Source: a virus (taxonomy: Duplodnaviria; Caudoviricetes). Taken from it: DNA of 56,742 nt. The stretch is taken from positions 1 through 56,742 of the IMG/VR virus record IMGVR_UViG_3300042521_001523; one strand, 5' to 3'. The notes beneath the pieces were generated by a model that saw only the letters and a list, made by a program, of their open reading frames with translations, was not told where the DNA came from and ran no database searches. This document shows positions 1 through 51,770 of the stretch, piece by piece. How positions within the stretch are numbered: position 1 is the first letter of the stretch; every line of letters begins with the position of its first letter. The position numbers and the translations under genes were made by a program.

Positions 1-127
1 TGAACATGCTGGAGCGTGAGCTTGGTAAGAAGTGGTCAGTGGCGGTGGTGAACGGTGCAGTGAGCGCATCAGAGCGCAACACGATCTTTCGCAACTTCCA
101 GGAGGCCAAGGACCCGCACGTGCTGAT
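1..127. repeat. 127-bp terminal overlap identical to 56616-56742 (circular assembly)
   Basis: Exact identity of first and last 127 bases; lies inside the helicase ORF; length equals a common assembler k-mer. Confidence 0.95.
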
Positions 128-380
128 TGCCCATCCGGCTACGATGGCGCATGGCTTGACATTGACCGCTGCCAGTACTGTGATCTGGTACGGTCCGATC
201 ACCAGCAACGAGCAGTACGTGCAGGCGAACGGTCGCGTCGAACGCATCGGCAAGCGCCATGTGTCGAACGTGATCCACATCGAGGCGACAGACCTTGAGG
301 CGCGGATCTATGACCGACTGAAGGGTAAGCAGAAGCTGCAAGGCTTGCTGCTCGACCTGATCCAACAACAAACGAGGTGA
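1..380 (+). CDS. C-terminal part of SNF2-family helicase (continues from 55451 across the junction)
   Basis: Helicase C motifs HGLTLT and QANGRVERIG; ATG at 6 corresponds to in-frame ATG at 56621. Confidence 0.9.
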   Translation, partial: NMLERELGKKWSVAVVNGAVSASERNTIFRNFQEAKDPHVLIAHPATMAHGLTLTAASTVIWYGPITSNEQYVQANGRVERIGKRHVSNVIHIEATDLEARIYDRLKGKQKLQGLLLDLIQQQTR

Positions 381-384
381 ACAA

Positions 385-792
385 ATGCCTGAACTAAACG
401 TGGATCAAGTGATCTCAGCGTACCTCAAGCTGAGGCACCAGAAGGATGCCGTGGAGAACGCGGCAAAGCAGGAGGTGCAGGTCATCAAGGATAAGATGGC
501 CAAGCTGGAGTCGTGGCTGCTGTCGCAGGCCAACGAGCAGAGCGTCACTTCCTTCAAGACCAAGAGCGGCACGGCCTTCGTCACCACGACGGACTACGCG
601 AACGTGGCTGACTGGGATGCGGTGCTCGCTTACGTGAAGGCGAACGAAGCCTTCGACATGCTGGAGCGGCGCGTCAGCAAGATCGCAGTGCGCGGCTACA
701 TCGAGAGCAAGGGCGCTGTGCCCGCTGGTGTGAACTACGGCACGAAGATCGAGATCAACGTGCGCAAGCCGACCGCCAGGGTGGATGACTGA
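385..792 (+). CDS. Conserved phage replication-module hypothetical protein
   Basis: 135 aa, SD GAGGTGA at 374, N-terminal coiled coil, between helicase and SSB-like gene. Confidence 0.8.
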   Translation: MPELNVDQVISAYLKLRHQKDAVENAAKQEVQVIKDKMAKLESWLLSQANEQSVTSFKTKSGTAFVTTTDYANVADWDAVLAYVKANEAFDMLERRVSKIAVRGYIESKGAVPAGVNYGTKIEINVRKPTARVDD

Positions 793-1111: not shown

Positions 1112-1134
1112 CTACCAACCCAGAGGAGAGAACT

Positions 1135-2401: not shown

Positions 2402-2407
2402 TACACT

Positions 2408-2433
2408 TGGGTGGGGAGTTGCCTCCCCACCCA
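2408..2433. promoter_or_regulatory. 11-bp perfect intergenic hairpin before primase
   Basis: TGGGTGGGGAG-TTGC-CTCCCCACCCA; no U-tract. Confidence 0.55.
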
Positions 2434-2457
2434 CCATAAAACTAGGGTAGGGGAACC

Positions 2458-34047: not shown

Positions 34048-36089
34048 TAGGCTTGGCCCGTCATCTGGTTGGCGACCACGTTCATCTGCGAGCCTGGACC
34101 GCCGCCCTCAGGCGAAGGCGCCGGGGCCTGACCCTGCGGAGCCGCTAGCTGGGCCTGCTGCTGGGTACGGATCATGTAGTCGAGCTTCTCGCGCGACGGG
34201 ATAATCTCATCGACCGGCATCTGGAGGCCCTTGGCCACCTCACGCAGCAGCGCCGCACGGCCATCGATGCCGACGATCTGCATATCCACTGGGTTGGCGG
34301 TCGCGTTGAGGAACTCGACGCGCCGAACGTTGACCGTCTCGCGCACAGCGAGGTTGATCGCGCCACGCGGGATGATCTCGGCGTCACCCTTGATCGCCTC
34401 ATCCGGGTCATAGCGCATGTTATAAACAAACTGACGCTTAACGACCGGCTTGATAACGTCGTTATCGATGTGCATGACAACCTGTCGGATGCCCTTGCCC
34501 GCCGAGCCCATCAGCATCGATAGACCAGAAGCAGTGCGGCCCGCGCCGCGCACATCCACGTCGCCGTAGATGTAGGCCGGGATGCCCGAGTGGTCGTCGG
34601 CGAGGCGGGAAAACCGCTCGTAGACCGCCATCAGCGTGCTGGCATTGTCGCTCGGCTGGTTGAAGCGCACCGCCGGGGCCGACGACCCGAGCGGATCATT
34701 CAGCGTCTGCCAGATCTTCCAGGGGTACATCTGGGTGATGTCTTCGTTCGGCGGGATGCGGTCGAGATTCACCTCAACCTGCGGGCCGGACGCCACCGCC
34801 ATGTTGTTCACCAGAGCCCGCGCCGCCGCGTTGCAGACGTTCTGCAAGTCCTCGATGATCTCGGGGATGCCACGGCCCCAGAAGGCACCCGGCGTCTTGA
34901 TGAAGGAGGTCTTGGCGTAGGGCTTCTCGCCCAGCGGGTCGTAGTTTAGCACCGCCTTGATGATGTAGTTACCCACCATCCAGACGTTCGCGTCGTACTC
35001 ACGCATCTCATCCGGCACCTCGGTAGGGTCCATACCCCACTCGCGGAGCATCTTGCCGCTGACCTTGCCCCAGAACTCCAGGGCATCGAAGAGGTCGGTC
35101 GGGCGCATCTCCGTGAAGTACTTGCGCTCCTCCTCTTCGCGCTGCATCTCGATGGTCTCCGAGACCCAGCTCTGGCCCGGACCAGCCTCGATGGCCTTGC
35201 GAATGGCCGCATCGTCGTAGCCCGGCACGCCGATCAGATCGGCCATGGCCGAACGGCTAAGGCGATGGTGCTCGAACAGGTAGCCGTCGTTGAGGCGCGT
35301 GATGCCCGGCTCGGGGTAGATGTTGAACGGGCTAACCCGCTCGAACTCAGGCGCCAGCCGCTCGCTAGCCTCGACCGTGGTGCGGCCATCTGGCCCCTTT
35401 ACCCAGCCCAGGTGACGCTGACGCCGGACAATCGGCCCCTTCACAAAGGCGCAGGGGAAGGTCACCAGATCGGTGATGAACTCGTTGAACGCATCAGCCC
35501 ATCCACCCTGAGCGAACTGGTCGTCGATGCGGATCTTCATCCCATCCACCCGGGCCTGGGCAGCCTGGAGGATTTTGAAACGGTACTCCTGAGCGACGAT
35601 CTCCTTCATCTCCAGCATCTGAGCCGGGCTGGGGGCTTGCCCGGTCTGCTGGATCATCTCAACGACCCGCTCGGCAAAGCCTTGCTGGATCTCTCCTGTG
35701 TGGTCGGGCGAGAGGTCAGGGATAGGCGTGGGCTGCATATCCCACGGGGGGAAGCCAGTATCGAGGAGGATGTCGCGCAGCCAGCTCTCAGCCGCCCGGC
35801 ACTTCACCTCGGTGAGCATCATATAAACTTCGGAGCCACCCTGCTTGCGAATGGCTTGCAGCTTGTCGGCCTCGTACTCGCCATTGCGCTGGCGCATGGC
35901 CTTCAGCATGAGGTCGTTGATGGGGTCCTTGGCGATGCGCGCGGCATCCCAGCACTCGCGCATGTAGGCCGACAGGCCAAGGATCAGGTCACTATTCTGC
36001 CGAGCCTGAACCTCCGCATCCAGCCGTTCCTTCTCGGCCCGCTCGATCTCGGAGTTACTGACGACGCGGAGAATGGTGAGGCCCGGCAT
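34047..36089 (-). CDS. Portal protein
   Basis: 680 aa after terL; VSPFNIYP, FWGRGIPE, RTASGLSMLM, Gln-rich tail. Confidence 0.85.
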   Translation of the reverse strand: MPGLTILRVVSNSEIERAEKERLDAEVQARQNSDLILGLSAYMRECWDAARIAKDPINDLMLKAMRQRNGEYEADKLQAIRKQGGSEVYMMLTEVKCRAAESWLRDILLDTGFPPWDMQPTPIPDLSPDHTGEIQQGFAERVVEMIQQTGQAPSPAQMLEMKEIVAQEYRFKILQAAQARVDGMKIRIDDQFAQGGWADAFNEFITDLVTFPCAFVKGPIVRRQRHLGWVKGPDGRTTVEASERLAPEFERVSPFNIYPEPGITRLNDGYLFEHHRLSRSAMADLIGVPGYDDAAIRKAIEAGPGQSWVSETIEMQREEEERKYFTEMRPTDLFDALEFWGKVSGKMLREWGMDPTEVPDEMREYDANVWMVGNYIIKAVLNYDPLGEKPYAKTSFIKTPGAFWGRGIPEIIEDLQNVCNAAARALVNNMAVASGPQVEVNLDRIPPNEDITQMYPWKIWQTLNDPLGSSAPAVRFNQPSDNASTLMAVYERFSRLADDHSGIPAYIYGDVDVRGAGRTASGLSMLMGSAGKGIRQVVMHIDNDVIKPVVKRQFVYNMRYDPDEAIKGDAEIIPRGAINLAVRETVNVRRVEFLNATANPVDMQIVGIDGRAALLREVAKGLQMPVDEIIPSREKLDYMIRTQQQAQLAAPQGQAPAPSPEGGGPGSQMNVVANQMTGQA

Positions 36090-36099
36090 GGGTTCCCCG

Positions 36100-36453
36100 T
36101 TAGCTCACAGGTCCGCGAAGGACGAGGTACACATCGACCGCATCGCTCGTCCCGCCCGCCACGCTGGGGCGAAAGTAGATCGAGGAGCGTCCAATCTCGA
36201 AGTGGGCCGCCGCCGTGGCGCTAACCGTCGTGCCGTGCACGTCCTTGATGTCGGCGTAGGTGGTACCGTCATTCGACACCTGGAGCTTGGCCGTCGCACC
36301 GCCAAAGGTACCAGCAAACTGCACCGCCGCGTTCAGCCCCAGCCGACCCTGCACAGCGTAGGGCAGCACCGTATCGCCAGTGGCGATGTTCTCCCAAAGC
36401 AGATAGGGAACACCCTCAGCGGTGCGGGAGAGAACCGGAGCAACCGTCGCCAT
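36100..36453 (-). CDS. Hypothetical beta-rich virion protein
   Basis: GTFGGAT.KLQVSNDG; ATG 36453 just after sRNA terminator. Confidence 0.65.
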   Translation of the reverse strand: MATVAPVLSRTAEGVPYLLWENIATGDTVLPYAVQGRLGLNAAVQFAGTFGGATAKLQVSNDGTTYADIKDVHGTTVSATAAAHFEIGRSSIYFRPSVAGGTSDAVDVYLVLRGPVS

Positions 36454-36472
36454 ACCAACCCCCTCGCTGCCC

Positions 36473-36552
36473 AAAAAACCCCTGTCGGGAGCCGGGGGGC
36501 TCAACCGACAGGGAAGTTTGGGAGGTGAACACGGGTACAGAGGCGTGTACCC
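36473..36552 (-). ncRNA. Putative anti-SD small RNA 1 (~80 nt)
   Basis: GGGUACA-CGCCUC-UGUACCC hairpin, single-stranded GUGUUCACCUCCCAAACUU, terminator CCCUGUCGG..CCGACAGGG-G-UUUUUU. Confidence 0.7.
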
Positions 36553-36558
36553 ACCAGG

Positions 36559-36588
36559 ACCCTAACACGCTAAATCTTGGGGGTGCAA
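36559..36588 (-). promoter_or_regulatory. sigma70-like promoter for sRNA 1
   Basis: TTGCAC-N18-TAGGGT with TGn extension; predicted +1 at the first base of the hairpin. Confidence 0.55.
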
Positions 36589-36607
36589 GGCCCTTCTCCC
36601 CATGGCT

Positions 36608-36680
36608 AAAAACCCCCCGCCTAGTGGGGCGGGGGGCAGGCGGGGGAGAGTGAATGGAATCCGCACCATGCGGTCCACCC
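36608..36680 (-). ncRNA. Putative anti-SD small RNA 2 (~70 nt); its terminator also ends terL
   Basis: GGA-CCGCA-UGG-UGCGG-AU-UCC hairpin, linker AUUCACUCUCCCCCG, terminator CCCCCCGCC/GGCGGGGGG-UUUUU. Confidence 0.55.
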
Positions 36681-36682
36681 AG

Positions 36683-36711
36683 AAGGTATCAGGTCCACCC
36701 CACGGCGGCAA
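36683..36711 (-). promoter_or_regulatory. sigma70-like promoter in terL 3' end for sRNA 2
   Basis: TTGCCG-N17-TACCTT with TGn extension. Confidence 0.45.
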
Positions 36712-38098
36712 TCGGCACGATGTCCCGCTTGACCCTAACCATCGCCCCCTCACCCGCATTTCCGATGTGCAGCATCAGGTACTGGAGCGCCTCAGCGATG
36801 TGGCTGTGCTTGTTCTTGTCGATGCCGCCATCCCCCCGGTTCTTGTACCGGTAGCCCCCCATCATGGCCGCCTTGAGCTGCGTGCAGCTGGGGTCCATCA
36901 GGAAGGCCGGGTCGCCATCGACCTGCCGCATCAGGAAGTCATCGACCGCGTTGACCCGGGCCGAGATGCTGTTGGTCCTAGCCGAGATGACCCTGAACCC
37001 CTCAGCCTTGATGATATCGACCGCGCTCCGCTCGTCGGTCTGGGCGCGCTGCACACCCGCCGGGTCGGTCACTATGAGGACCGGCGCCCCTGGGAACCGC
37101 TCGAAGAGCAGCGGCTTGAGCACCGTTCGCACGAACCGCTGGATGCCCATGTCGAAGCTGACCGCCTCAGCCAGGATCAGTGCCCGCCCACGCGGGTCCT
37201 GCTGCCCGATGGCCGCCGCAGGCGTAAGCCCAAGGTCCATCCCCACAACGATGGGCCGCACCCCGTTGGTAATCGCCCGGAGCGGCGCCTTGGCCATGTG
37301 GTAGTCCGGCTTGAAGTACTTGTAGACCGGCGTGCCTGCCAGCGAGAGCCCGTACTCGCCGTCGATGTAGACCCGGACGTACTCATCCGACCGGCCCTGG
37401 GTGTCGTAGTACCCGTCCGGCAGGTTCTCCAGGTTCTCGGCGTAGGGGCTCCGGCCTGACGGCTGCTTGAACACATCCCAGCCGTTCTCGTTCAGCGAGA
37501 CGCCATCGACCGGGCTCAACTTCTCCATCTGGTAGTACCACCACGTGTCCATGGTGGGTGGGTTGGTATCACCCCACATCCCGAACCACGTCGGCCCGCC
37601 GTCCTTGGCAGACGGAAAGCGCCCAATGCGCTTCGACATGGCGTCCACGATGTCAGGGTGGATGTCGCGGCACTCGTTGAACCACGCGAAGGTCAGCTCC
37701 AGCGAGTTCAGGTTGGCCACATCGTCCGCGTCGTCGAGCGCGCGGAACATGATCTCGCACTCCACGTCGCCCACCCTGAAGAAGTAGGTCTTGGTGGTGC
37801 GCATGTACTCCCCGCACTGGCCCGGTGGGAACCAATCGAGGAAGGTCTTGATCGTGGTGTCCTGCAACTGCCTCGCAGTCTCACGTACAATGGCCGCGCG
37901 CGAGCGCCTACGCCCCTGAGCGTCGGGTTTCTGCATGGTAGCGCGCCGCACCACCTCAAAGGAGCAGGTCACGCTCTTACCAGAGCCGACTGGACCCATC
38001 AGGACCCGCATCCGCCGGTTAGAGTGCATGAACCGCTTACCTGTCGGCGGCGGTGTGTAGTCAATTTCGAGTGCCATGGTCAGTGTGGCTTGCGCCAA
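36689..38098 (-). CDS. terL: Terminase large subunit (start may be 38077)
   Basis: Walker A GPVGSGKS, WFNE Walker B, DTNPP motif III, nuclease GMDLG, SHIAEALQY. Confidence 0.92.
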   Translation of the reverse strand: MAQATLTMALEIDYTPPPTGKRFMHSNRRMRVLMGPVGSGKSVTCSFEVVRRATMQKPDAQGRRRSRAAIVRETARQLQDTTIKTFLDWFPPGQCGEYMRTTKTYFFRVGDVECEIMFRALDDADDVANLNSLELTFAWFNECRDIHPDIVDAMSKRIGRFPSAKDGGPTWFGMWGDTNPPTMDTWWYYQMEKLSPVDGVSLNENGWDVFKQPSGRSPYAENLENLPDGYYDTQGRSDEYVRVYIDGEYGLSLAGTPVYKYFKPDYHMAKAPLRAITNGVRPIVVGMDLGLTPAAAIGQQDPRGRALILAEAVSFDMGIQRFVRTVLKPLLFERFPGAPVLIVTDPAGVQRAQTDERSAVDIIKAEGFRVISARTNSISARVNAVDDFLMRQVDGDPAFLMDPSCTQLKAAMMGGYRYKNRGDGGIDKNKHSHIAEALQYLMLHIGNAGEGAMVRVKRDIVPIAAVGWT

Positions 38099-38310
38099 CC
38101 CTCCTCGTACGCCTCGCGGCCATCGGCGCTATGGTGAATGTGGTAGCCCGAGGTTTCGTCGTAGTAGGGATCGCACCAGCAGGGCGGATCTTCGGTGAAA
38201 ATGTGCTCTCGGATGTCATCCGCAGGCACCACATGCCACGACCCATCGGTCGTGTAGCTCTCATCGTCGTCGTACTCGCCGTGGGTGGGCTCTTTGCGAG
38301 TGTTGCTCAC
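38080..38310 (-). CDS. Hypothetical His/Cys-rich protein
   Basis: HVVP.DD.REH..CWCDP..HIHHSADGRE. Confidence 0.65.
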   Translation of the reverse strand: MSNTRKEPTHGEYDDDESYTTDGSWHVVPADDIREHIFTEDPPCWCDPYYDETSGYHIHHSADGREAYEEGWRKPH

Positions 38311-38507
38311 TGGAAAACCTCCACGAGGTAGCGCAATCCACGCTTGCGGGTGTTGGTTATCCGCGTCCGGTAGGACGCTCCACGTGCCATCAGCTCCTGC
38401 TCGACCCTTTTGACCTCTACCGGGCTCTCCAGCTCAATCAGATTCGCTGTCGTCGGAGTCGGACTCGATCTGCTGTGGCGTCGCGTCGATGACCGTCGCT
38501 GTTCCAA
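38307..38507 (-). CDS. Hypothetical protein (start uncertain)
   Basis: Fills gap, stop overlaps next ATG. Confidence 0.5.
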   Translation of the reverse strand: MEQRRSSTRRHSRSSPTPTTANLIELESPVEVKRVEQELMARGASYRTRITNTRKRGLRYLVEVFQ

Positions 38508-38922
38508 GCTCCTGACCCCCCAGGTTGATGGTAATTCTGACGCCGCCAGCGGCAGCGCCGTCGCCCACGTCGTTCTTGGGCTCCAGTCCCGCCCACTTCA
38601 CGGTGGATTTGATGAGGTCGGCCTTCACCGCAGGGCTCACCACGGGGTCGTGGATGAGCATCCATGAGGTTTTGAGCAGCTCTTCAGCCTGCGTGCGGGC
38701 CTTGAGGCGGAAGGTGACCCCCTTATCGCGGATCTCGTCACGGAAATCCGAGACCTTGCGAAGGAAAACTGGGTCTTTGTTGAACACCAGCAGGTCGCCA
38801 GCGACGATCTGGTGCCGCGTGACGATCTCATCGAGGTCCTCACCGCTACCTTCGAGGCGAAGGGCGATGTCGAACGCCAGCCGATTGGTCCATTTGGTCG
38901 GTGAGACGGTCGAAAGGTCCAT
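38434..38922 (-). CDS. Probable terminase small subunit
   Basis: First gene of - arm, helical, C-terminal GVRITINLG strand; positional inference. Confidence 0.55.
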   Translation of the reverse strand: MDLSTVSPTKWTNRLAFDIALRLEGSGEDLDEIVTRHQIVAGDLLVFNKDPVFLRKVSDFRDEIRDKGVTFRLKARTQAEELLKTSWMLIHDPVVSPAVKADLIKSTVKWAGLEPKNDVGDGAAAGGVRITINLGGQELGTATVIDATPQQIESDSDDSESD

Positions 38923-38949
38923 CTGTACTGCTCAGATCCCTGGGTTCTT

Positions 38950-38978
38950 AGCGTATGTGCCTGAGATGTGGGCGTCAA
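38950..38978 (-). promoter_or_regulatory. sigma70-like promoter of packaging/late arm
   Basis: TTGACG-N17-TACGCT. Confidence 0.7.
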
Positions 38979-39122
38979 GGCGAGCTTTTTGCTGGATATT
39001 TCATTACGAAAAGTTAATCTTTGGTATTTTTAGGTCGTGGTTTACGGGGCTTACGCATGTGAGGGGGGGCCTGGATTTTGCCAGTCCAGGTGGGGCCGGT
39101 CCAAGCCGCGAAGCAAGCGCGG

Positions 39123-39136
39123 CGCAGCGCGCTGCG
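39123..39136. promoter_or_regulatory. 14-bp perfect palindrome, candidate operator
   Basis: CGCAGCGCGCTGCG, 20 bp upstream of the -35 at 39157. Confidence 0.35.
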
Positions 39137-39156
39137 AGGCCGGAAACGGGCGGCAT

Positions 39157-39185
39157 TTGACATTTCCGGGCGAATATGTCCTAAT
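39157..39185 (+). promoter_or_regulatory. sigma70-like early promoter
   Basis: TTGACA-N17-CCTAAT with TGn; 5' hairpin GGGCCAGC/GCTGGCCC at 39190-39210. Confidence 0.7.
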
Positions 39186-39262
39186 AATTGGGCCAGCAGC
39201 GAGCTGGCCCCGGCGGCGGGATGGCCCCCACGGGTTGCTCTTTCAAACTGAGGATCAGAACC

Positions 39263-39547
39263 ATGGCTAAGACCGATGATCTCGTGTGGGTCGAGCTGAA
39301 TGTTGCCAGCCTCCCGGCTGAGCTTCAGAAGACGCTGGCGGAAGCGCGAGAGCACACCAAGAAGGCTAAGGAGCTGAAGGAAAAGGCTCGCAAGGCCCTC
39401 GAAAAGCGGTGGATCGACGCGAAGCGGATGCCTGCCACTGAGGAAGTGGTGATCGCGTTCTCCCGCTTCGGCGATGACAAGGTGAACGTGGCGCGGAAGG
39501 AGCGAAAGACTCCCAAGGCGAGCACCAAGCCGACCGTCGCTTGGTAA
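39263..39547 (+). CDS. Early basic hypothetical protein
   Basis: 94 aa from ATG after GAGG; Lys-rich helix. Confidence 0.75.
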   Translation: MAKTDDLVWVELNVASLPAELQKTLAEAREHTKKAKELKEKARKALEKRWIDAKRMPATEEVVIAFSRFGDDKVNVARKERKTPKASTKPTVAW

Positions 39548-39553
39548 CACAAC

Positions 39554-39577
39554 GGGAGGCGCCGCAAGGCGCCTCCC
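39554..39577 (+). promoter_or_regulatory. GCAA-tetraloop hairpin 1
   Basis: GGGAGGCGCC-GCAA-GGCGCCTCCC. Confidence 0.7.
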
Positions 39578-39594
39578 TCCTTCGGAGAAGAACC

Positions 39595-39822
39595 ATGATC
39601 ATGAACGCTGAGGCGCTGAGCATTGCGCCGACCACCTCGGAACTGCAAACCGCGCTTTCCATCCTGCGCCGCAAGGCGATGGCAGATGCGCAGTGCGCCC
39701 GAGAAGCCGAGGCCCAGGAACAGTGGACCACGGCGGATGCCTACTGGGCGCGGGAACTGGGACTGCGCTGCGCCGCCGAACTGGTGCACGACTGCATGGA
39801 AGGCATCCTGCGAGACATTTGA
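39595..39822 (+). CDS. Early hypothetical protein
   Basis: 75 aa, GGAG SD. Confidence 0.7.
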   Translation: MIMNAEALSIAPTTSELQTALSILRRKAMADAQCAREAEAQEQWTTADAYWARELGLRCAAELVHDCMEGILRDI

Positions 39823-39826
39823 CACC

Positions 39827-39848
39827 AGGAGGGGCGCAAGCCCCTCCT
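39827..39848 (+). promoter_or_regulatory. GCAA-tetraloop hairpin 2
   Basis: AGGAGGGGC-GCAA-GCCCCTCCT. Confidence 0.7.
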
Positions 39849-39865
39849 CCTTTGGGAGAGTGAAC

Positions 39866-40084
39866 ATGACACCGGGTTACAAGGCTGGTTGGGCTGCCTT
39901 CCAGCAGTACGTCCTCACTATACAGGCATTCGGGGACGAGGATGCACTTTACGACGAGCTGCCGCAGCTGCGGCGGGAACTGGAGCGAGTACGCGACCAC
40001 GGCATCGACTACATGACGGACTTCCAGGAGGGTTGGGACGACGCCGCCGACCTCGCCGAGGACCAGGACCTCAGCCTCGCTTGA
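39866..40084 (+). CDS. Early acidic hypothetical protein
   Basis: 72 aa, GGGAG SD, very acidic C-terminus. Confidence 0.7.
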   Translation: MTPGYKAGWAAFQQYVLTIQAFGDEDALYDELPQLRRELERVRDHGIDYMTDFQEGWDDAADLAEDQDLSLA

Positions 40085-40089
40085 CACTG

Positions 40090-40114
40090 ACCCCGCCGCA
40101 AGGCGGGGTTTTTT
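40090..40114 (+). terminator. Intrinsic terminator with GCAA loop
   Basis: ACCCCGCC-GCAA-GGCGGGGT-TTTTT. Confidence 0.88.
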
Positions 40115-40199
40115 ATTGCCTTGACACCAGGGCTGTGCGCCGCCTCCGCGTGCTCGCTGCGCTCGCCATACGTCGGGGGCCTCTAGGTCAGCAAAGTGC

Positions 40200-40675
40200 G
40201 CGCATAATGGCGTTCTATAGGTCTGACGGCCTATGGATAGGAAAACAAGTACAACAATCTGTAAAAATAGCCTGTTTTTTTACATTTTATACGTTTGTCT
40301 CCGTATACTGTAAAGTTAGATCTTTACAGATTGTAGGCTAGTTGACACGTAAACACCATGGAAAACCAATGGGTTCCAGGATCTCTCTCTCTATCTATAA
40401 TCTATATTTTCTAACAATCCGTAAAAAAGGAATTTTAACCCTTTCCTCATGCGCGAGGCCCCTGGTGGATACGTAAAGCATGTACAGTGCATTCCCCTTT
40501 ACACCCCCCAACTCTCTTCTAATTTGTGGCGCTCTTTACGAATATTTTTTAGATTATTAGATTGTTGACAGATCCTGCCTCGTAACCCACTAATTTTCCA
40601 CCCTTTTAACAATCTGTGCGCTACCGCGACGTTATACATACAAAATAGATCACGACATCATAATAGATTGTTGCG
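40200..40675. other. AT-rich non-coding region with repeated AACAATCT motifs; putative replication origin
   Basis: Most AT-rich long intergenic stretch; motif copies in both orientations. Confidence 0.55.
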
Positions 40676-40694
40676 ACCATTGATGGGGCCGGAC

Positions 40695-40723
40695 TTGACA
40701 CGGCGGGGCCGCCGGGCTAGCCT
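40695..40723 (+). promoter_or_regulatory. sigma70-like promoter of main early operon
   Basis: TTGACA-N17-TAGCCT. Confidence 0.75.
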
Positions 40724-40775
40724 GGGAACCGGGTCGGCGCTCCGCCGATGCCCCACAACAGAGGTGAATGGACAG

Positions 40776-42290: not shown

Positions 42291-42304
42291 CCCAGGAGAT
42301 ACCT

Positions 42305-43303
42305 ATGACCCGCAAGACCAACGTCAGCGCCATGCCCAGCAAGGTGCGAGAACTCAACCTCAGCAACCCCATCATCAACGAGCTGCTCCAGATGCACACT
42401 TACTGCCGCCCTGCTGGCAGTGAGACCGAGGCGCTGTTCGTCAAGCGTTACCTCGACAGCATCCCCGACATGCGCAGTGACGCCAAGGGCAACCGCTACA
42501 TCAACATCCCCAACAGGGATGGATCGCTGTCACGTATCCTGTGGTCCTCCCATACCGACACTGTGCACGCCAAGGGCGGCAGGCAGCGTATCACCTACGG
42601 TGGCGGTATGCTCTCCCTCTCACCCAACGCTGACAGCTCGTGCCTTGGTGCTGACTGCACGGCAGGTGTGTGGCTGATGCGCCAGATGATCCTCCGCGAG
42701 GTCCCTGGCCTCTACATCTTCCATGCTGCTGAGGAGATCGGTGGCATCGGTTCTCACCACATCGCCGTTGAGACACCCGAGCTGCTCGATGGCATTGACT
42801 ACGCTATTGCGCTTGATCGGCGTGGCACCACCAGTGTCATCACCCATCAGGGTGCACGCTGTGCGTCAGATGCGTTTGGTAGGGCGCTGGCTGATCAGCT
42901 CAGCACCAAGGGCCACACGTTCCAGCTCGACTCCGGTGGCACCTTCACCGATACGGCCAACTACACCGACATCGTGCCTGAGTGCACCAACCTCAGCGTT
43001 GGGTACTACAACGCTCACCAAGCCACAGAGTACCTCGATGTGCCCTTCCTGGTGCATCTGCTGGAGCGGCTGTGTCAGGTCGATCCGGTCACCCTGCCTG
43101 TGGTGCGCAAGGCTGGCGACAGTGACTTCCCCTGGGGCAACTCGGCGTCGTGGCGCAGTGGTGGCACTGCCTCCTACGCTTCGTCCAAGGGCAGCACCCT
43201 GGAGGATCTTGTGTACGACTACCCCAAGGCCGCAGCGCAGCTGCTGGAGGACCTTGGCATCTCTGCTGATGACTTCCAGCAGTACCTGTACGGCGTTCAC
43301 TGA
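42305..43303 (+). CDS. Zn-dependent exopeptidase-like (M20/M28/M42 fold)
   Basis: SHTDTV, LGADC.AG, AEEIGG.GS, DRRG, YNAH metal-ligand pattern. Confidence 0.82.
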   Translation: MTRKTNVSAMPSKVRELNLSNPIINELLQMHTYCRPAGSETEALFVKRYLDSIPDMRSDAKGNRYINIPNRDGSLSRILWSSHTDTVHAKGGRQRITYGGGMLSLSPNADSSCLGADCTAGVWLMRQMILREVPGLYIFHAAEEIGGIGSHHIAVETPELLDGIDYAIALDRRGTTSVITHQGARCASDAFGRALADQLSTKGHTFQLDSGGTFTDTANYTDIVPECTNLSVGYYNAHQATEYLDVPFLVHLLERLCQVDPVTLPVVRKAGDSDFPWGNSASWRSGGTASYASSKGSTLEDLVYDYPKAAAQLLEDLGISADDFQQYLYGVH

Positions 43304-43314
43304 GGAGGATGAAC

Positions 43315-43545
43315 ATGCGTAGGTATCGGTACGTCGAGCGGGATAGTGCGACCGGCACTACCCTCTACGAGGCGACTGGTAACAGCATCGAGGAGACCGC
43401 CGATAAGGTGGGCTTCGATTGGGATGATGCCGCCAATCTCTGGGCTGGTGTTCAGCCTGGGTCGCCGGTCATCGACCGCGACATGGATGGCAAGGGTGGC
43501 ATCACATACAGCCGAGAGTTCCACATTGATATTGCGGAGGGATGA
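43315..43545 (+). CDS. Hypothetical protein
   Basis: GAGGAGG SD spacing favours second ATG. Confidence 0.7.
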   Translation: MRRYRYVERDSATGTTLYEATGNSIEETADKVGFDWDDAANLWAGVQPGSPVIDRDMDGKGGITYSREFHIDIAEG

Positions 43546-43547
43546 AC

Positions 43548-43856
43548 ATGCGTAGGACCATCAAGACCCGTCCCGTAGAGGACCACATCGCGCTCATCGA
43601 GGTTCCGGCCTCGGCTCAGGCGTACACCAAGTGGATGCACTACGAGTACCTGTCGTGCCGACAGGCCGCCATTCTGGAGGTCGTCAAGGCCAACCCTGGT
43701 GCGACCATTGGGGCCATTGCTGCGGTGCTCAACGTCAACAAGCCGTCAGTCACCAGGGCTGCGGATAAGCTGTCCAAGTGGAACCTGCTCCACCGCAGTA
43801 CCGACCTGATGGATAGGCGGCTGATGCTGCTCTGGCCCGGACCTAACAAGGGCTAG
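43548..43856 (+). CDS. MarR-like winged-HTH regulator
   Basis: TIGAIAAVLNVNKPSVTRAADKL...DRR. Confidence 0.75.
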   Translation: MRRTIKTRPVEDHIALIEVPASAQAYTKWMHYEYLSCRQAAILEVVKANPGATIGAIAAVLNVNKPSVTRAADKLSKWNLLHRSTDLMDRRLMLLWPGPNKG

Positions 43857-43920
43857 GCCGAAACGTAGGGTCCGACCCCCTGCGTCCAGCGGTAACGCCG
43901 CTGCTGATGAGGCCACTTGT
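43846..43920 (+). ncRNA. Type II hammerhead ribozyme, predicted cleavage after C43886
   Basis: GGCC-GAAAC-stem III-GUC-stem I (CAGCGG/CCGCUG)-CUGAUGA-GGCC; all core bases and three helices present. Confidence 0.92.
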
Positions 43921-43951
43921 CAGAAACAAACTTACAAGAGGTGAACATGCA

Positions 43952-44944
43952 ATGCGTCCGACTCTTTTAAAAGATACACTCGCTGCGCTGATCCGTGTGG
44001 GCCGCACGGTCTGCGTTGAGGGGGCACCCGGTGGCGGCAAGACCACCATCGCCCGAGAGGTCGCCTCTGATCTAGGTCGGGGCTACATCGAGATGCACCT
44101 GCCCACCATGCTGGTGGAGGACTTCGGCATCCCGGAGATCAGTGGCTCCACGCTGAGCTACAAGCTGCCTGACTGGTACCCTGCGCAGGGCAGCCGCCAC
44201 GATACCCCTGAGGGTGGGTTGCTGTGCTTCGACGACCGCAATCAAGCCGGTGCGGACATCCAGAAGGTTCTGGCCAACATCTGTCAGGCAAGGACGCTGC
44301 ACGGCGTACCCATGGCTAACGGCTGGAGCGTCATCTCCACCGGCAACAGGCAGAGTGACCGGGCAGGGGCTAACCGTGTGCTGGGCCACCTCCGCAACCG
44401 TGAGACGGTGCTGGAGATGGAGACGCACCTCGACGACAGCTCGGCCTGGATGATTGCCAACGGTGTACGGCCTGAGGTGGTGAGCTTCCTGCGCTTCCGG
44501 CCTGGGTTGCTCCATGACTACGACCCGCAGCGTGATCAGAACCCCACGCCACGGTCCTGGGTGGAGGGTGTCTCGGCTGTGCTGGGCGTGGTGCCTGCTG
44601 ATGCTGAGTTCGAGTGCTTCAAGGGCGCTGTGGGTGAGGGCGCTGCGGCTGAGTTCGTGGGGTTCCTGCGCATCTTCCGCAAGCTGCCCAACCCTGACGC
44701 CATCCTGCTCGACCCCAAGGGGTCGGTGGTGCCGACCGATCCGGCGACGCTCTACGCCCTGTCTGGTGCCTTGTCTGCCCGTGCAAGTTCGGGCAACCTT
44801 GACCGTGTTGTGGCGTACTGTGAGCGGATGCCGCCCGAGTTCAGCGTGCTGACCGTCTCCATCGCAGCGCGCCGTGACCCGTCACTGGCCAGCACCCAGG
44901 CATTCACGACCTGGGCCGTAAAGCACCACGAAGTGCTGTTCTGA
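43952..44944 (+). CDS. MoxR-like AAA+ ATPase
   Basis: GAPGGGKT, CFDDRN, STGNR, PTPRSW; SD at 43938. Confidence 0.85.
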   Translation: MRPTLLKDTLAALIRVGRTVCVEGAPGGGKTTIAREVASDLGRGYIEMHLPTMLVEDFGIPEISGSTLSYKLPDWYPAQGSRHDTPEGGLLCFDDRNQAGADIQKVLANICQARTLHGVPMANGWSVISTGNRQSDRAGANRVLGHLRNRETVLEMETHLDDSSAWMIANGVRPEVVSFLRFRPGLLHDYDPQRDQNPTPRSWVEGVSAVLGVVPADAEFECFKGAVGEGAAAEFVGFLRIFRKLPNPDAILLDPKGSVVPTDPATLYALSGALSARASSGNLDRVVAYCERMPPEFSVLTVSIAARRDPSLASTQAFTTWAVKHHEVLF

Positions 44945-44957
44945 GGAGGATAGAACA

Positions 44958-46923: not shown

Positions 46924-47111
46924 GCGAGGGCACGCTCATCACCATCGGCCTCACCCTCTGCTTCTGGGTGGGCTGGCTGGAGTGGAGGCTGCGTCGTGCT
47001 GATGAGAAGTGCGACCAGCTCTGCCACCTTCTCGTACACATCGCCTACGGTCGGCTCACCATCCGGGTGGACCGTGACCGCAAGGTGCACATAACACCAA
47101 CTGGGAGATGA
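46920..47111 (+). CDS. Small membrane-anchored protein
   Basis: 63 aa, N-terminal hydrophobic helix. Confidence 0.6.
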   Translation: MSEGTLITIGLTLCFWVGWLEWRLRRADEKCDQLCHLLVHIAYGRLTIRVDRDRKVHITPTGR

Positions 47112-47113
47112 AC

Positions 47114-47755
47114 ATGGGTACCGTTCGTATTGGCGTTGACCTCAAGCAGCACATCATCCGCATGGCGACGCTCACCTACTTCAAGCGCATCGAGATTGCG
47201 GAGCGTAGCCTCAAGTTCCCGTTCGACGGGCCGACGCTCTACTCCATGCTGTTCGGTGAGTGGGAGAAGCAGATGGAGGCGCTACCCAATGGGTTCCTTC
47301 CTCTGCGCCCTGCCATCCAGATCCGCAATGTAGGCGGCGTCGTGCCTCCCCCGTTCACGTTCTCCTGCGGCGTGAAGCGGTTCCCGTTCAACCTGCCATC
47401 CGCTGGGCGGGACTTCGTGCTGAGCATGTCGTTCACTGAGTACGCCTCTGTCACCCTGCTACCGTCCGAGCGGTGGGAGCCGACCATCAAGGCAGTGCAC
47501 GACTGGAAGCAGCAGCACGACAACATCATCGCTGAGCGCGATGCGTTCATCATGGGGGTGAACAGGGTGCTCGATGCCCACGCTACGCTGGGTGCTGCGG
47601 TCAAGACATGGCCCGCACTGTGGGAGCTGGTTCCTGAGAACGTGAAGGAGCGCCAGCGCAGCACCACCAAGCCTGAGAAAAAGAAGGAGGCTGCACCCTT
47701 GGATATCGATGTTGACCGCATGACGGCGGTTGTTGCGATGAGCAAGATCCTGTGA
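47114..47755 (+). CDS. Hypothetical protein, Nmad5-like C-terminus
   Basis: VLDAHATLGAAVKTWPAL resembles Nmad5 motif; GGGAG SD. Confidence 0.55.
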   Translation: MGTVRIGVDLKQHIIRMATLTYFKRIEIAERSLKFPFDGPTLYSMLFGEWEKQMEALPNGFLPLRPAIQIRNVGGVVPPPFTFSCGVKRFPFNLPSAGRDFVLSMSFTEYASVTLLPSERWEPTIKAVHDWKQQHDNIIAERDAFIMGVNRVLDAHATLGAAVKTWPALWELVPENVKERQRSTTKPEKKKEAAPLDIDVDRMTAVVAMSKIL

Positions 47756-47997: not shown

Positions 47998-48014
47998 CCA
48001 ACCGGAGAGTGAAC

Positions 48015-48503
48015 ATGACGAAGATCCTTGCGACCCTGAAGCACGACCTGACCGCCAAGGCTGGACAGGTGCTGATCCTGCACGACAACGGCAAAATCTA
48101 CGCTGTTGATGGAGACATCGTGGAGCTTGTGGTGCGCAGTGTGCCTGCTACCCCCGCTCCTGAACCCGTCTGGACTGCCAAGGTGGTGACCCCTGAGCCT
48201 GCTCCTGCCCCGGCACCTGAGGTGGATATCCAGTCGGCACGTGAACGGCGGAACCGGCTGGCCGAGGCGAACGCGCTGCTGTTGCAGGGCATGACGATCC
48301 GCATGGTGTCGCACAAGACCGGCATCCCGCGTGGCACGCTGGGCAACTACCGCACCAACCTCGTGCGGGCCGGACTGCTGGAGGGCAGCGCCAAGCCGCG
48401 CAAGAGCCACTTCTTCAAGAACGACAAGACCCTGGAGGCGGCGCGTGAACGTGGCCGCAAGCTGGCCGAGGCCAAGAAGGCGAAGCGGGATGCGTCCGCG
48501 TGA
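48015..48503 (+). CDS. HTH-containing hypothetical protein
   Basis: GMTIRMVSHKTGIPRGTL; GGAG SD. Confidence 0.65.
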   Translation: MTKILATLKHDLTAKAGQVLILHDNGKIYAVDGDIVELVVRSVPATPAPEPVWTAKVVTPEPAPAPAPEVDIQSARERRNRLAEANALLLQGMTIRMVSHKTGIPRGTLGNYRTNLVRAGLLEGSAKPRKSHFFKNDKTLEAARERGRKLAEAKKAKRDASA

Positions 48504-51311: not shown

Positions 51312-51498
51312 GGTCAGAAAGGCTCTGGACGATCTCGGTGTTGGCTATACCATCGAGAAGAGCCGGGACCACTACTTCGCCAGGGTAGCTGGGTACCCGC
51401 GCATCATCGTCGCGGGTAACCACGGCAAAAACAAACACGGTGAACGCAAGGGCACGCTGCGAGATATCCGGCGGCTCAAAGAGCGACTGGAGAGGTGA
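51295..51498 (+). CDS. HicA-like small basic protein
   Basis: 67 aa; G.TIEKSRDH, GTLRDIRR. Confidence 0.45.
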   Translation: MKLDPEVRKALDDLGVGYTIEKSRDHYFARVAGYPRIIVAGNHGKNKHGERKGTLRDIRRLKERLER

Positions 51499-51503
51499 AC
51501 CAA

Positions 51504-51770
51504 ATGCCAAAGACCACGTTCAACGCAACCAACACTGTCTACACTGTCACCACTCCGAGAACAGCAACCGGCACCTTCAGTACTGCTGAGTGGAATCAAC
51601 TCGCCGATATGCGAGACATCGCCAGGACGAATGTAAGAGATGTGCTCGACCGCGAGTTCCCGCCCGAGCTGCGGGAGTTCCTGATCTGGCTGGTCAACAA
51701 CGACGCGCACATCAACGCCAAGTTCATGGCGTTCAGGGCGTGCAAGCGGATCGGCGTGGAGATCAAGTGA
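51504..51770 (+). CDS. Hypothetical protein
   Basis: SD GAGGTGA at 51492. Confidence 0.65.
   Translation: MPKTTFNATNTVYTVTTPRTATGTFSTAEWNQLADMRDIARTNVRDVLDREFPPELREFLIWLVNNDAHINAKFMAFRACKRIGVEIK

What the first reader, a model, noticed from the sequence alone, without database searches (positions are those of the whole stretch)
36473..36588. sRNA 1: self-contained anti-Shine-Dalgarno RNA complementary to early-gene start sites
Seen: on the - strand, a promoter (TTGCAC-N18-TAGGGT, TGn) places +1 at a 7-bp hairpin. A single-stranded GUGUUCACCUCCCAAA and a U6 terminator follow. Its complement TGGGAGGTGAACACGGGTAC (36519-36538) matches TGGGAGATGAACATGGGTAC (47102-47121) at 18/20, and one difference is a G-U wobble. 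That site covers the SD, AUG and first codons of gene 47114. It also matches 39851-39868 at 16/17 with one bulged base. Known: anti-SD seeds are how many bacterial sRNAs block translation. Inference: a trans-acting phage sRNA that silences early genes.
Basis: partly seen in the sequence, partly recalled or inferred. Interest (0 to 1): 0.9.

Follow-up and report, generated by a model that had tools for sequence, protein, structure and literature searches.

The report
Phage leader RNA with anti-ribosome-site seed
A lake phage carries, just ahead of its structural genes, a short hairpin-flanked RNA whose exposed stretch is complementary to the ribosome-binding and start sites of at least eight of its own non-structural genes, so it may switch those genes off late in infection, though no experiment shows this yet.

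Summary
On the - strand between the large terminase gene and the next gene lie a promoter-like site, a 7-bp hairpin, 18 unpaired bases with an extended anti-Shine-Dalgarno stretch, and a strong terminator with U6. The 18/20 match to 47102-47121 and the bulged match to 39851-39868 are real.

New evidence: six sequence variants from related phage contigs keep the unpaired stretch, and both stems change by compensating substitutions (7 of 22 pairs). Eight of 41 + strand gene starts share SD-TGAAC-start, the complement of the seed. None of 41 - strand starts does, and four related genomes show no such enrichment.

Against a simple "self-contained sRNA": the element sits in the leader of the structural operon. 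I found no promoter-like site between its terminator and the next gene. Contigs from RNA libraries run across the terminator. The element is homologous to the terminase 3'UTR element of relatives. An energy-based target test is only marginal, and seed/target co-variation is mixed.

Verdict: this is a real structured leader RNA. I put about 45% on an early-terminated small RNA that represses non-structural genes in trans, and about 30% on a cis-only attenuator/terminator. It is a new variant of a known kind.

The parts
36689..38098 (-). Large terminase gene (469 aa); its stop codon is at 36691-36689
   Evidence: phrog_2 terminase large subunit, E 1.4e-25; more than 596 related loci in viral contigs
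36608..36660 (-). Terminase 3'UTR: a degenerate C-rich motif (ATTCCATTCACTCTCCCCCG), then terminator 1 (stem 36636-36613, T5 36612-36608)
   Evidence: 71 of 81 distinct terminase-downstream sequences in relatives have a terminator-like hairpin plus T-run
36559..36588 (-). Promoter-like site: TTGCAC, 18-nt spacer, TAGGGT, with TGT directly before the -10
   Evidence: A site of this form follows the terminator in 64 of 71 relatives, against 36 of 71 on the reverse complement and 21% of shuffles. Not listed by the tool's consensus scan. Activity not shown.
36533..36552 (-). 5' hairpin with 7 pairs; the inferred transcript start is near 36552
   Evidence: three different stem sequences occur in the variants, with compensating changes
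36515..36532 (-). Unpaired seed GUGUUCACCUCCCAAACU (extended anti-Shine-Dalgarno)
   Evidence: Unpaired in the separate folds of 4 variants. The 11-nt core GTTCACCTCCC is identical in all 6 distinct variants. It occurs once in the window at 0 mismatches.
36473..36514 (-). Intrinsic terminator 2: a 10+5-pair bipartite stem and U6
   Evidence: 4 of its 15 pairs show changes on both sides. G-U pairs in L085 fit only the terminase strand.
36100..36470 (-). SD (GAGGGGG), ATG at 36453-36451, and the 117-aa first gene of the structural block. Only 19 nt separate the U-tract from the ATG.
   Evidence: RNA-library contigs 36381-36535 and 36266-36522 bridge terminator 2 into this gene.
372..387 (+). Candidate target start region ACGAGGTGAACAAATG (135-aa gene)
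   Evidence: duplex -17.0 kcal/mol; the product matches phrog_13900 'minor head protein'
39851..39868 (+). Candidate target TTTGGGAGAGTGAACATG (72-aa gene, followed by a terminator at about 40089-40116)
   Evidence: duplex -26.8 kcal/mol
43301..43317 (+). Candidate target TGAGGAGGATGAACATG (76-aa gene, absent from the close relative L112)
   Evidence: duplex -21.9 kcal/mol
43534..43550 (+). Candidate target GCGGAGGGATGAACATG (102-aa MarR-family regulator)
   Evidence: PF01047, E 1.4e-10; duplex -20.9 kcal/mol
43938..43954 (+). Candidate target GAGGTGAACATGCAATG (330-aa ATPase)
   Evidence: duplex -20.1 kcal/mol
47102..47121 (+). Candidate target TGGGAGATGAACATGGGTAC (213-aa gene with no family match)
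   Evidence: duplex -29.9 kcal/mol if the 3' arm of the 5' hairpin opens
48002..48017 (+). Candidate target CCGGAGAGTGAACATG (162-aa gene with a weak HTH match)
   Evidence: duplex -20.5 kcal/mol
51489..51506 (+). Candidate target GGAGAGGTGAACCAAATG (88-aa ORF just before the DNA polymerase A gene)
   Evidence: duplex -19.9 kcal/mol

Best explanation
A short RNA of about 80 nt is made on the - strand from the promoter that, in this phage family, drives the structural genes. It begins near 36552 with a 7-bp hairpin. It then exposes 18 bases holding an extended anti-Shine-Dalgarno sequence (GUGUUCACCUCCCAAACU). It ends at a strong intrinsic terminator (36514-36473).

Most transcripts stop there and are released as a small RNA. 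The rest read through and become the mRNA of the structural genes.

The released RNA pairs with the SD-to-AUG region of at least eight non-structural + strand genes. These genes share the form GGAG, 0-2 bases, UGAAC, 0-3 bases, AUG. Pairing keeps the 30S subunit off and so lowers translation of those genes once the structural promoter is active.

In read-through mRNA, part of the seed (CCUCCCAAA) is predicted to pair with the U-tract plus GGG. The seed would then be free mainly in the terminated form.

Shown: the sequence anatomy, structural co-variation, seed conservation, the shared start-site motif, and RNA-library contigs across the terminator.

Inferred: promoter activity and timing, termination efficiency, pairing in trans, and repression.
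For: 1. Anatomy. Each of 4 variants folds on its own into a 5' hairpin, about 18 unpaired nt, and a terminator plus U-run (z from -5.43 to -2.73).

2. Co-variation. Across 6 distinct sequences, 96.9% of 131 cells are paired. 7 of 22 pairs change on both sides. 0 of 500 shuffles reach this, and slid controls give at most 1 such pair. The 11-nt seed core is invariant, while flanking coding DNA is only 73-83% identical in L084 and L085.

3. Start-site motif. After an SD, TGAAC (the complement of the seed's GUUCA) is the commonest of all 1024 5-mers. It occurs at 8 of 41 + strand starts and 0 of 41 - strand starts. The next independent 5-mer occurs 3 times. In four related complete or near-complete genomes that lack the promoter-proximal form, no 5-mer exceeds 3. 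The orthologues of three target genes there lack TGAAC.

4. Pairing. All eight sites can pair from the SD to the AUG, at -17 to -30 kcal/mol.

5. Seed/target co-variation. In the L004/L089 lineage a seed change A to G is matched by a target change T to C.

6. Terminators. Only four convincing intrinsic terminators exist in the genome, and two of them bracket this unit.

7. Precedent. StxS is a regulatory sRNA made by early termination of a phage late transcript (abstract).
Against: - No transcript ends are known. RNA-library contigs (X19 36381-36535, X20 36266-36522, both from one study) cross the terminator. Read-through RNA therefore exists, or DNA contaminates the library.
- The promoter hexamers are weak, and the tool's scan did not list them.
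- The element is homologous to the terminase 3'UTR element of relatives (scores 37 and 47 against about 19-20 ± 4; 0 of 300 shuffles). Those relatives show no TGAAC enrichment. Conservation of the CCUCC part may therefore serve another purpose.
- Against seeds with the CACCUCC core kept and the flanks shuffled, the energy statistics are marginal. Starts at or below -16 kcal/mol number 14, against 7.7 ± 4.0, and 8% of 300 controls reach that. The mean of the best 8 is -19.6, against -17.5 ± 1.2, and 5.3% of controls reach that.
- The genome-wide duplex ranking shows no gap after the two top sites: -28.1 and -27.2, then -27.0 and -26.7 at places that are not gene starts.
- Some changes are not compensated. 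L112 has seed U to C, and its target has TAAAC in place of TGAAC. L082 has target C opposite seed A.
- The L084 contig has the same seed but no TGAAC start in its 2.5 kb of + strand genes.
- Only one complete genome carries the promoter-proximal form.
Confidence: 0.45

Rival explanations
1. A cis-only element. It is the family's terminase-operon terminator region, which in this lineage ended up downstream of the structural promoter. There it acts as a leader attenuator that sets, or lets a factor regulate, how much transcription enters the structural genes, in the manner of a late promoter with its tR'-type terminator. Under this reading the conserved unpaired stretch serves termination, RNA stability or binding of a factor. 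The likeness to gene starts then reflects a shared Shine-Dalgarno 'flavour' and recombination linkers.
For: - In relatives the order is terminase, element, promoter, gene. Here it is terminase, terminator 1, promoter, element, gene.
- The element is homologous to the relatives' 3'UTR element.
- There is no promoter-like site between the U-tract and the ATG 19 nt later, and none on the - strand until 29344. Structural genes must therefore be reached by read-through.
- RNA-library contigs bridge the terminator.
- 59 of 81 relatives have a CCTCC-like motif between the terminase stop codon and the terminator, without TGAAC starts.
- Gene starts with this motif are recombination junctions. L082 has a different gene behind the same site. 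The window has an extra gene at 43315-43545 flanked by repeats of the site.
Against: - It does not explain why TGAAC, the exact complement of the seed next to the anti-SD core and in the right register, is the top 5-mer at + strand starts only in this lineage.
- It does not explain why the stretch is kept unpaired and letter-perfect while both stems drift.
- I searched no gene against antiterminator families.
Confidence: 0.3
2. The repeated motif is a site for a protein, either on DNA or on RNA. Examples would be a phage regulator or nuclease that recognises GGAG..TGAAC at gene starts. The copy in the leader would then be one more site, and RNA-RNA pairing would play no part.
For: - All nine copies lie in the same orientation on the + strand.
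- The phage encodes a MarR-family regulator whose own gene start carries the motif.
Against: - The motif is not palindromic.
- Sites that overlap the SD and AUG inside operons fit an RNA-level role better.
- In the leader the transcribed strand carries the complement, so an RNA-binding protein would not see the same sequence.
- The G-U pairs and the U-run show that selection acts on the - strand RNA there.
Confidence: 0.07
3. It is a relic of recombination or a chance resemblance with no function beyond terminating transcription.
For: - The energy statistics are marginal.
- GC-rich duplexes of similar strength occur at places that are not gene starts.
- Mosaic junctions lie at these sites.
Against: - Both stems show compensating changes, and the seed is invariant across lineages with 17-27% nucleotide divergence around it.
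- The 20-mer match is expected 0.01 times by chance.
- TGAAC ranks first of 1024 5-mers.
Confidence: 0.08

Closest known systems
StxS, the sRNA made by early termination of the PR' late transcript at tR' in Shiga-toxin phages (PMC7547250; abstract and outline read)
   Same: A short RNA is produced because a terminator sits just downstream of the promoter of the late genes. Read-through gives late gene expression. The short RNA acts in trans by base pairing and also represses a phage gene.
   Different: StxS comes from temperate lambdoid phages with a Q antiterminator. It is processed by RNase E and binds Hfq, and its main trans target is a host mRNA (rpoS), which it activates. Here I looked for no Q-type antiterminator gene, there is no sequence likeness, and the predicted targets are a set of the phage's own gene starts.
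c4 antisense RNA of phages P1 and P7 (passages of review PMC12197685)
   Same: A phage RNA pairs around the ribosome binding site of a phage mRNA and blocks its translation. The complementary stretches are held in exposed parts of a folded RNA.
   Different: c4 controls one operon (the antirepressor) for immunity and is made from the same transcript as its target. Here there are eight dispersed targets on the opposite strand block.
Start-associated sequences (SAS) of Cluster K mycobacteriophages (PMC3203893, passages read; PMC12699233, passages)
   Same: An asymmetric motif containing the SD core lies a few bases before the start codon of a subset of non-structural genes. It lies in one orientation and is absent from structural genes. 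Several phages also have one lone copy in the opposite sense that is not at a gene start.
   Different: The sequence and the host are different. SAS has 11-19 near-identical 13-bp copies, and no complementary RNA has been proposed in the passages I read. Here the copies are looser (GGAG, 0-2 bases, TGAAC), and the lone antisense copy sits in a hairpin-flanked, terminator-ended RNA.
T4 RegA and RegB: proteins that shut off early mRNAs at their start regions (recalled; the review PMC3014915 was seen only in a search listing)
   Same: Late shut-off of a set of early phage mRNAs by acting at the SD and start region.
   Different: These are proteins, a translational repressor and an endonuclease, not an RNA.
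Bacterial sRNAs with C-rich anti-SD seeds (recalled, not tested here)
   Same: An exposed C-rich stretch pairs with G-rich ribosome binding sites of several mRNAs.
   Different: These are host-encoded. No Rfam family matches this RNA.

Membership tests
Trans-acting base-pairing sRNA | Its own promoter and a defined 5' end | tested here: inconclusive
   The hexamers TTGCAC, N18, TAGGGT with TGn are present. They match the consensus at only 3+3 of 12 and were not listed by the scan. A site of this form is conserved by position in 64 of 71 relatives, against 36 of 71 on the reverse complement. There are no 5'-end data.
Trans-acting base-pairing sRNA | Intrinsic terminator with a U-tail that defines the 3' end | tested here: met
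   A 15-pair GC-rich stem plus U6, kept by compensating changes. This is sequence-level evidence only.
Trans-acting base-pairing sRNA | A discrete stable small transcript | not testable with these tools
   Only assembled contigs of RNA libraries were available. They cross the terminator and cannot show transcript ends.
Trans-acting base-pairing sRNA | A conserved unpaired seed | tested here: met
   Unpaired in the separate folds of 4 variants. The 11-nt core is invariant in 6 of 6 distinct variants.
Trans-acting base-pairing sRNA | Complementarity to targets beyond chance | tested here: inconclusive
   The motif test is strong: TGAAC is first of 1024 5-mers, at 8 of 41 + strand starts against 0 of 41 - strand starts. 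The energy test is marginal, with 5-8% of flank-shuffled seeds doing as well.
Trans-acting base-pairing sRNA | Seed and target co-vary | tested here: inconclusive
   There is one compensated change (L004/L089), one wobble (L112) and three uncompensated changes (one in L082, two in L112). No second complete genome carries the element.
Late-promoter leader RNA with terminator (lambda PR'-tR' / StxS type) | A terminator directly downstream of the promoter of the structural or late genes | tested here: met
   The promoter-like site is at 36588-36559 and the terminator at 36514-36473. The first structural-block gene starts at 36453.
Late-promoter leader RNA with terminator (lambda PR'-tR' / StxS type) | Transcripts that read through the terminator into the late genes | tested here: inconclusive
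   Two RNA-library contigs bridge it. DNA in the library cannot be excluded, and both contigs come from one study.
Late-promoter leader RNA with terminator (lambda PR'-tR' / StxS type) | A Q-type antiterminator gene and its binding and pause elements | not tested
   Only 26 of the window's proteins were scanned against Pfam or PHROGs. None of them matched an antiterminator family.
Any Rfam family | A score at or above the family's gathering threshold | tested here: not met
   0 matches in the whole window. The best lax-threshold hits in 36350-36750 score 13-22 bits, against thresholds of 37-71.
Start-associated sequences (Cluster K type) | A conserved asymmetric motif with the SD core 3-7 bp before the starts of a subset of non-structural genes, in one orientation | tested here: met
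   This holds in kind only. Eight + strand starts have it and no - strand start does. The 13-bp Cluster K consensus itself is not present, so this is an analogue and not a member.

The most novel reading that the evidence does not exclude
The phage uses one early-terminated leader RNA as an RNA counterpart of T4 RegA/RegB. Its exposed stretch imitates the anti-SD tail of 16S rRNA (the likeness to 16S is recalled, not tested) but is extended by GUGUU. It therefore outcompetes ribosomes only at a marked set of eight or more non-structural gene starts (SD-UGAAC-AUG). Termination versus read-through at one hairpin decides at the same moment how much silencer and how much structural mRNA is made. 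The seed is masked in the read-through form. If this is true, it also gives a testable idea for start-associated sequences, and for their lone reverse copy, in Cluster K mycobacteriophages.
Probability: 0.35. Interest if true: 0.8.

Novelty: new variant of a known kind. Interest (0 to 1): 0.62.

Why it matters
Few phage sRNAs have a known role, and those described mostly act on host genes or on a single phage gene. A phage RNA that silences a whole set of the phage's own non-structural genes through a shared start-site motif would be an RNA-based early-to-late switch. It would also show that a terminator in a late-operon leader can serve two purposes. It would give a concrete hypothesis for unexplained motifs at gene starts in other phages. 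Finally, the element shows how a 3'UTR terminator element can become a promoter-driven small RNA simply by a change in the order of a promoter and a terminator.

Tried and rejected
Searches and tests that led nowhere:
- Near and distant DNA searches of the phage collection gave nothing useful: no match and one 198-nt hit at 69% identity. The nearest isolates have terminases at 45% identity or less.
- Rfam gave no family, and there are no tRNAs.
- The covariance model R1 found no further member in 1.02 Mb of related loci. It gave only weak hits (E 0.6-0.95) on terminase 3'UTR elements.
- The metagenome pattern scan returned 111 stretches, of which 3 carry the element. The rest are chance hits, mostly in coding DNA.
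- One viral-contig hit (L086) is an unrelated gene start.

Ideas rejected:
- A + strand ORF through the element (36525-36653, 42 aa) is not conserved. In L084 the same frame stops after 15 codons, by my reading.
- A conserved antisense gene start behind the relatives' 3'UTR motif is also rejected. The distance to the terminase stop codon does not keep a reading frame, by my reading.

Trans targets for the relatives' 3'UTR motif:
- Its 14-nt complement occurs only at its own site at 0 mismatches in 3 of 5 records. A fourth record (G004) holds its own site at 2 mismatches, and G005 has no hit.
- By duplex energy, the orthologue of 47114 ranks 8th of 70 in G004 and is outside the top 8 in G001 and G005.
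- Longest-complement lists show only SD-like matches.
- By eye, G005's motif is complementary over 11 nt to the start region of its 47114 orthologue. My filter left that start out, and several other AAGGAG-type starts match nearly as well. I draw nothing from it.

A first gene call based on third-position GC was poor. I replaced it with a strand-block tiling.

Coverage gaps, recorded here only: in the two RNA-library runs no contig lay on 39005-45674 or upstream of 36535. Contigs cannot show absence or ends, so this is not evidence.

Supplementary files of the papers were not opened. The supplements of PMC3203893 and PMC12699233 list all SAS sites and may show whether the reverse copies lie in structured intergenic RNA.
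Full report
WHAT THE WINDOW IS

The window is a complete virus record with direct terminal repeats, 56,742 bases and about 61% G+C. DNA runs from lake water metagenomes hold the stretch; they may be its source.

Genes run on the - strand from 38922 down to 5327. These are a 162-aa protein, the large terminase at 36689-38098, a 117-aa protein, a 680-aa portal/adaptor-like protein, and onward to a 2472-aa protein. Genes run on the + strand from about 39260 to the end and again over 1-5325. They include a family A DNA polymerase, a DUF927 primase-type protein, a PD-(D/E)XK nuclease, an AAA ATPase and a MarR-family regulator.

I found no phage RNA polymerase among the 26 proteins I scanned. The nearest isolated phages have terminases at 45% identity or less. 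More than 596 related terminase loci exist in viral contigs.

THE OBSERVATION

- -35 TTGCAC at 36588-36583.
- An 18-nt spacer ending in TGT.
- -10 TAGGGT at 36564-36559.
- A 7-pair hairpin at 36552-36533.
- 18 unpaired bases, GUGUUCACCUCCCAAACU, at 36532-36515.
- A bipartite 15-pair terminator stem at 36514-36479, followed by U6 at 36478-36473.

The 80-nt RNA folds this way at -37.5 kcal/mol (z = -5.43; 0 of 200 shuffles fold as well). The 18/20 match to 47102-47121 is the only other hit of the 20-mer at up to 3 mismatches, against 0.01 expected. The 16/17 match with one bulge at 39851-39868 is also real.

The weak point is the promoter. Against TTGACA/TATAAT it scores 3+3 of 12 by my count. 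The tool's scan listed nothing in 35800-40200.

IS IT A REAL RNA ELEMENT? COMPARISON WITH RELATIVES

The 195-nt intergenic sequence is found by BLAST only in the closest relatives. Pattern scans of viral and metagenome contigs added more copies. In all, 16 held loci carry the element, in 6 distinct sequences. They fall into three groups:
- the window type, with three close variants (L003, L004, L112);
- L085;
- L084.

Around the element, L084 and L085 are only 73-83% identical to the window. Yet the 11-nt core GTTCACCTCCC is identical in all six, and the following A(A/G)ACTTCC nearly so.

Both stems differ and still pair. The 5' hairpin is GGGUACA/UGUACCC, GGGCAC/GUGUCC or GGCAGGCA/UGCCUGC. 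Counted on the alignment, 96.9% of 131 cells pair. 7 of 22 pairs have changes on both sides. 0 of 500 shuffles reach this. Partners slid by 1-3 columns give 31-50% pairing and at most one such pair. Six sequences amount to about three independent lineages, so the count is small but consistent.

G-U pairs in L085 and the U-run fit only the terminase strand. Each of four variants folds on its own into the same three-part shape. I conclude that a structured RNA on the - strand with a protected, unpaired, sequence-conserved stretch is real.

WHERE IT SITS, AND WHERE IT CAME FROM

In nearly all relatives the terminase stop codon is followed by a short hairpin, a C-rich CCUCC-type motif (often GCAGTTGTCACCTCC), a terminator, and a promoter of the form TTGNNN, N16-18, TANNNN. 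The SD and start of the next gene follow directly.
- Of 81 distinct downstream sequences, 71 have the terminator.
- 64 of those 71 have the promoter-like site. The loose pattern also hits 36 of 71 reverse complements and 21% of shuffles, so this is moderate support only.
- 59 of 81 have the C-rich motif.

In the window lineage the order differs: terminase, a degenerate motif plus terminator 1 (36660-36608), the promoter, then the element, then the gene.

The element aligns with the relatives' 3'UTR element. Against L005 the score is 37, with shuffles at 18.8 ± 3.7. Against L050 it is 47, with shuffles at 20.4 ± 3.9. In both cases 0 of 300 shuffles reach the score. Three other comparisons were weaker, with 8-30 of 300 shuffles reaching the score. 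The covariance model gives weak hits on such 3'UTR elements.

So the element is an old terminator-proximal element of the terminase operon that here lies downstream of the structural promoter. Only 19 nt separate its U-tract from the ATG at 36453. My promoter pattern finds nothing further on the - strand until 29344. The portal and capsid genes must therefore be reached by reading through this terminator.

Two contigs assembled from RNA libraries of one study run across it: 36381-36535 with 2 differences, and 36266-36522 with 10 differences. DNA in such libraries cannot be excluded. By its architecture, the element is at least an attenuator of the structural operon.

THE LINK TO GENE STARTS

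A pattern of SD core, 0-3 bases, TGAAC, 0-6 bases and a start codon hits nine places on the + strand. Eight are at or next to starts of ORFs of 72 aa or more: 385, 39866, 43315, 43548, 43952, 47114, 48015 and 51504. One is internal. The pattern hits one place on the - strand, a 45-aa ORF antisense to the primase gene.

I then used a gene list of 82 starts. It is my own crude tiling. Before counting, I removed two spurious calls inside the intergenic region and added one start, 51504. On this list TGAAC is the commonest of all 1024 5-mers after an SD.
- It occurs at 8 of 41 + strand starts and 0 of 41 - strand starts.
- The next independent 5-mer occurs 3 times.
- TGATC occurs 0 and 1 times on the two strands.

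TGAAC is the complement of the seed's GUUCA, directly beside the anti-SD core and in the right register. Each of the eight sites can therefore pair from the SD to the AUG, at -17 to -30 kcal/mol.

In four related complete or near-complete genomes without the promoter-proximal form, no 5-mer after an SD exceeds 3. The orthologues of genes 385, 43952 and 47114 there have other start regions.

In 530 kb of related loci, a stricter form of the motif occurs only in contigs of the window lineage. The looser SD-TGAAC pattern finds no site in L084, L085 or L087, the other contigs that carry the element.

WHAT WEAKENS THE TRANS READING

- With the CACCUCC core fixed and the flanks shuffled, 5-8% of 300 control seeds do as well on duplex energies. 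+ strand starts beat - strand starts only at p = 0.04.
- Genome-wide, the two top sites (-28.1 and -27.2 kcal/mol) are followed at once by sites that are not gene starts (-27.0 and -26.7).
- Seed/target co-variation inside the lineage is mixed. In L004/L089 a seed A to G change is matched by a target T to C change. In L112 the same seed change gives a G-U pair. L112 also has an uncompensated seed U to C change and a target with TAAAC. L082 has a C opposite the seed's A.
- L084 has the same seed but no TGAAC start in the 2.5 kb of + strand genes on its contig. One start there, GGAGGTTAACATG, comes close.
- The motif-bearing starts are also recombination junctions. L082 has a different gene behind the same site. 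The window has an extra 76-aa gene (43315-43545) flanked by two copies of the site plus the first three codons. Shared descent of these linkers explains part of the likeness among targets. It does not explain the likeness to the complement in the leader.
- The relatives' 3'UTR elements show that the CCUCC part is conserved without a TGAAC set of gene starts.

HOW IT MOST LIKELY WORKS

I commit to a two-in-one reading at about 45%. The structural promoter makes mostly a terminated RNA of about 80 nt and some read-through mRNA. The terminated RNA pairs with the SD-to-AUG region of the marked non-structural genes and lowers their translation.

In folds of the read-through form, CCUCCCAAA pairs with the U-tract plus GGG. 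This holds for the window and L085 but not for L084. That would leave the seed free mainly in the terminated form; this is inference.

The main rival, at about 30%, is that the element acts only in cis as terminator and attenuator, and that the conserved stretch serves something else.

'Early genes' is an inference from gene content. One target product matches a family named 'minor head protein'.

COMPARISON WITH WHAT IS KNOWN

- The closest documented case is StxS, a regulatory sRNA that arises by early termination of a phage late transcript (abstract).
- c4 of P1/P7 blocks a ribosome binding site of a phage mRNA (review passages).
- The shared start-site motif resembles the start-associated sequences of Cluster K mycobacteriophages. 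Their function is unknown, and several of these phages have one reverse copy that is not at a gene start (passages).
- T4 RegA and RegB are protein analogues (recalled).
- The CCUCC core of the anti-SD is stated in an abstract seen in a search listing. That the eight letters UCACCUCC also occur in the 16S rRNA tail is my recollection.

Three full-text searches found no description of a phage sRNA with an anti-SD seed aimed at a set of the phage's own gene starts. The library holds only Creative Commons PubMed Central papers and bioRxiv preprints.

VERDICT

The element is a real, conserved, structured leader RNA. Its action in trans is plausible and now rests on a set of eight gene starts, but it is unproven. 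It is a new variant of a known kind. Interest 0.62.

Noticed in passing
window 39820-39868; L084 7350-7410 and 7655-7710; L112 3965-4030 and 4240-4290: Small + strand genes are separated by a repeated cassette. It consists of a GC-rich hairpin with a GCAA/GCGA-type loop (for example GGAGGGGCGCAAGCCCCTCC), then a T/C-rich stretch, then the SD and start codon. Different genes sit behind the same cassette in close relatives, so the cassettes look like recombination linkers.
   Followed up: partly
window 43301-43550, compared with L112 540-575: The window has an extra 76-aa gene (43315-43545) that L112 lacks. It is flanked by two copies of GGAGG(G)ATGAACATGCGTAGG, as if it was inserted at, or duplicated with, the start site.
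   Followed up: partly
terminase-downstream regions of L029, L030, L050, L052, L081 and others: The 3'UTR of the terminase gene in many relatives carries a small hairpin followed by GCAGTTGTCACCTCC and then a terminator with an internal GTTGAGC. As I recall, hairpin plus tail resembles the last helix and 3' tail of 16S rRNA. Its role there is unknown.
   Followed up: partly
promoter spacers of L016, L029, L040, L050, L052: The structural-gene promoters of many relatives hold a GTATAC palindrome in the spacer, possibly an operator. The window's promoter lacks it.
   Followed up: no
L274 39871-39883 (Mycobacterium phage Anaya, record 59870-59882): Of 17 SAS-like sites (up to 2 mismatches) in the right 41 kb, 16 are on the + strand. 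The single reverse copy lies in the 385-nt gap between gp96 and gp97, about 155 nt after a terminator-like hairpin with T5. A rightward transcript would carry the complement of SAS there. I did not test structure or conservation.
   Followed up: partly
window 5327-12745 (-): A 2472-aa protein at the end of the structural block. Only its last ~530 residues match PHROG families of unknown function, whose profiles reach 3431 positions.
   Followed up: no
window 2419-2448 (+) and 40695-40723 (+): Two + strand promoter-like sites. The first has the same TAGGGT -10 as the site studied here and lies just before the primase-type gene. The second (TTGACA, N17, TAGCCT) lies in the low-GC gap after the terminator at 40089-40116.
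   Followed up: no
window 36454-36466 with 36425-36440 (-): In folds of the read-through leader, the SD region of the 117-aa gene (GAGGGGGUUGG) pairs with CCGGUUCUCUCCC early in the coding region. This could limit its translation.
   Followed up: no
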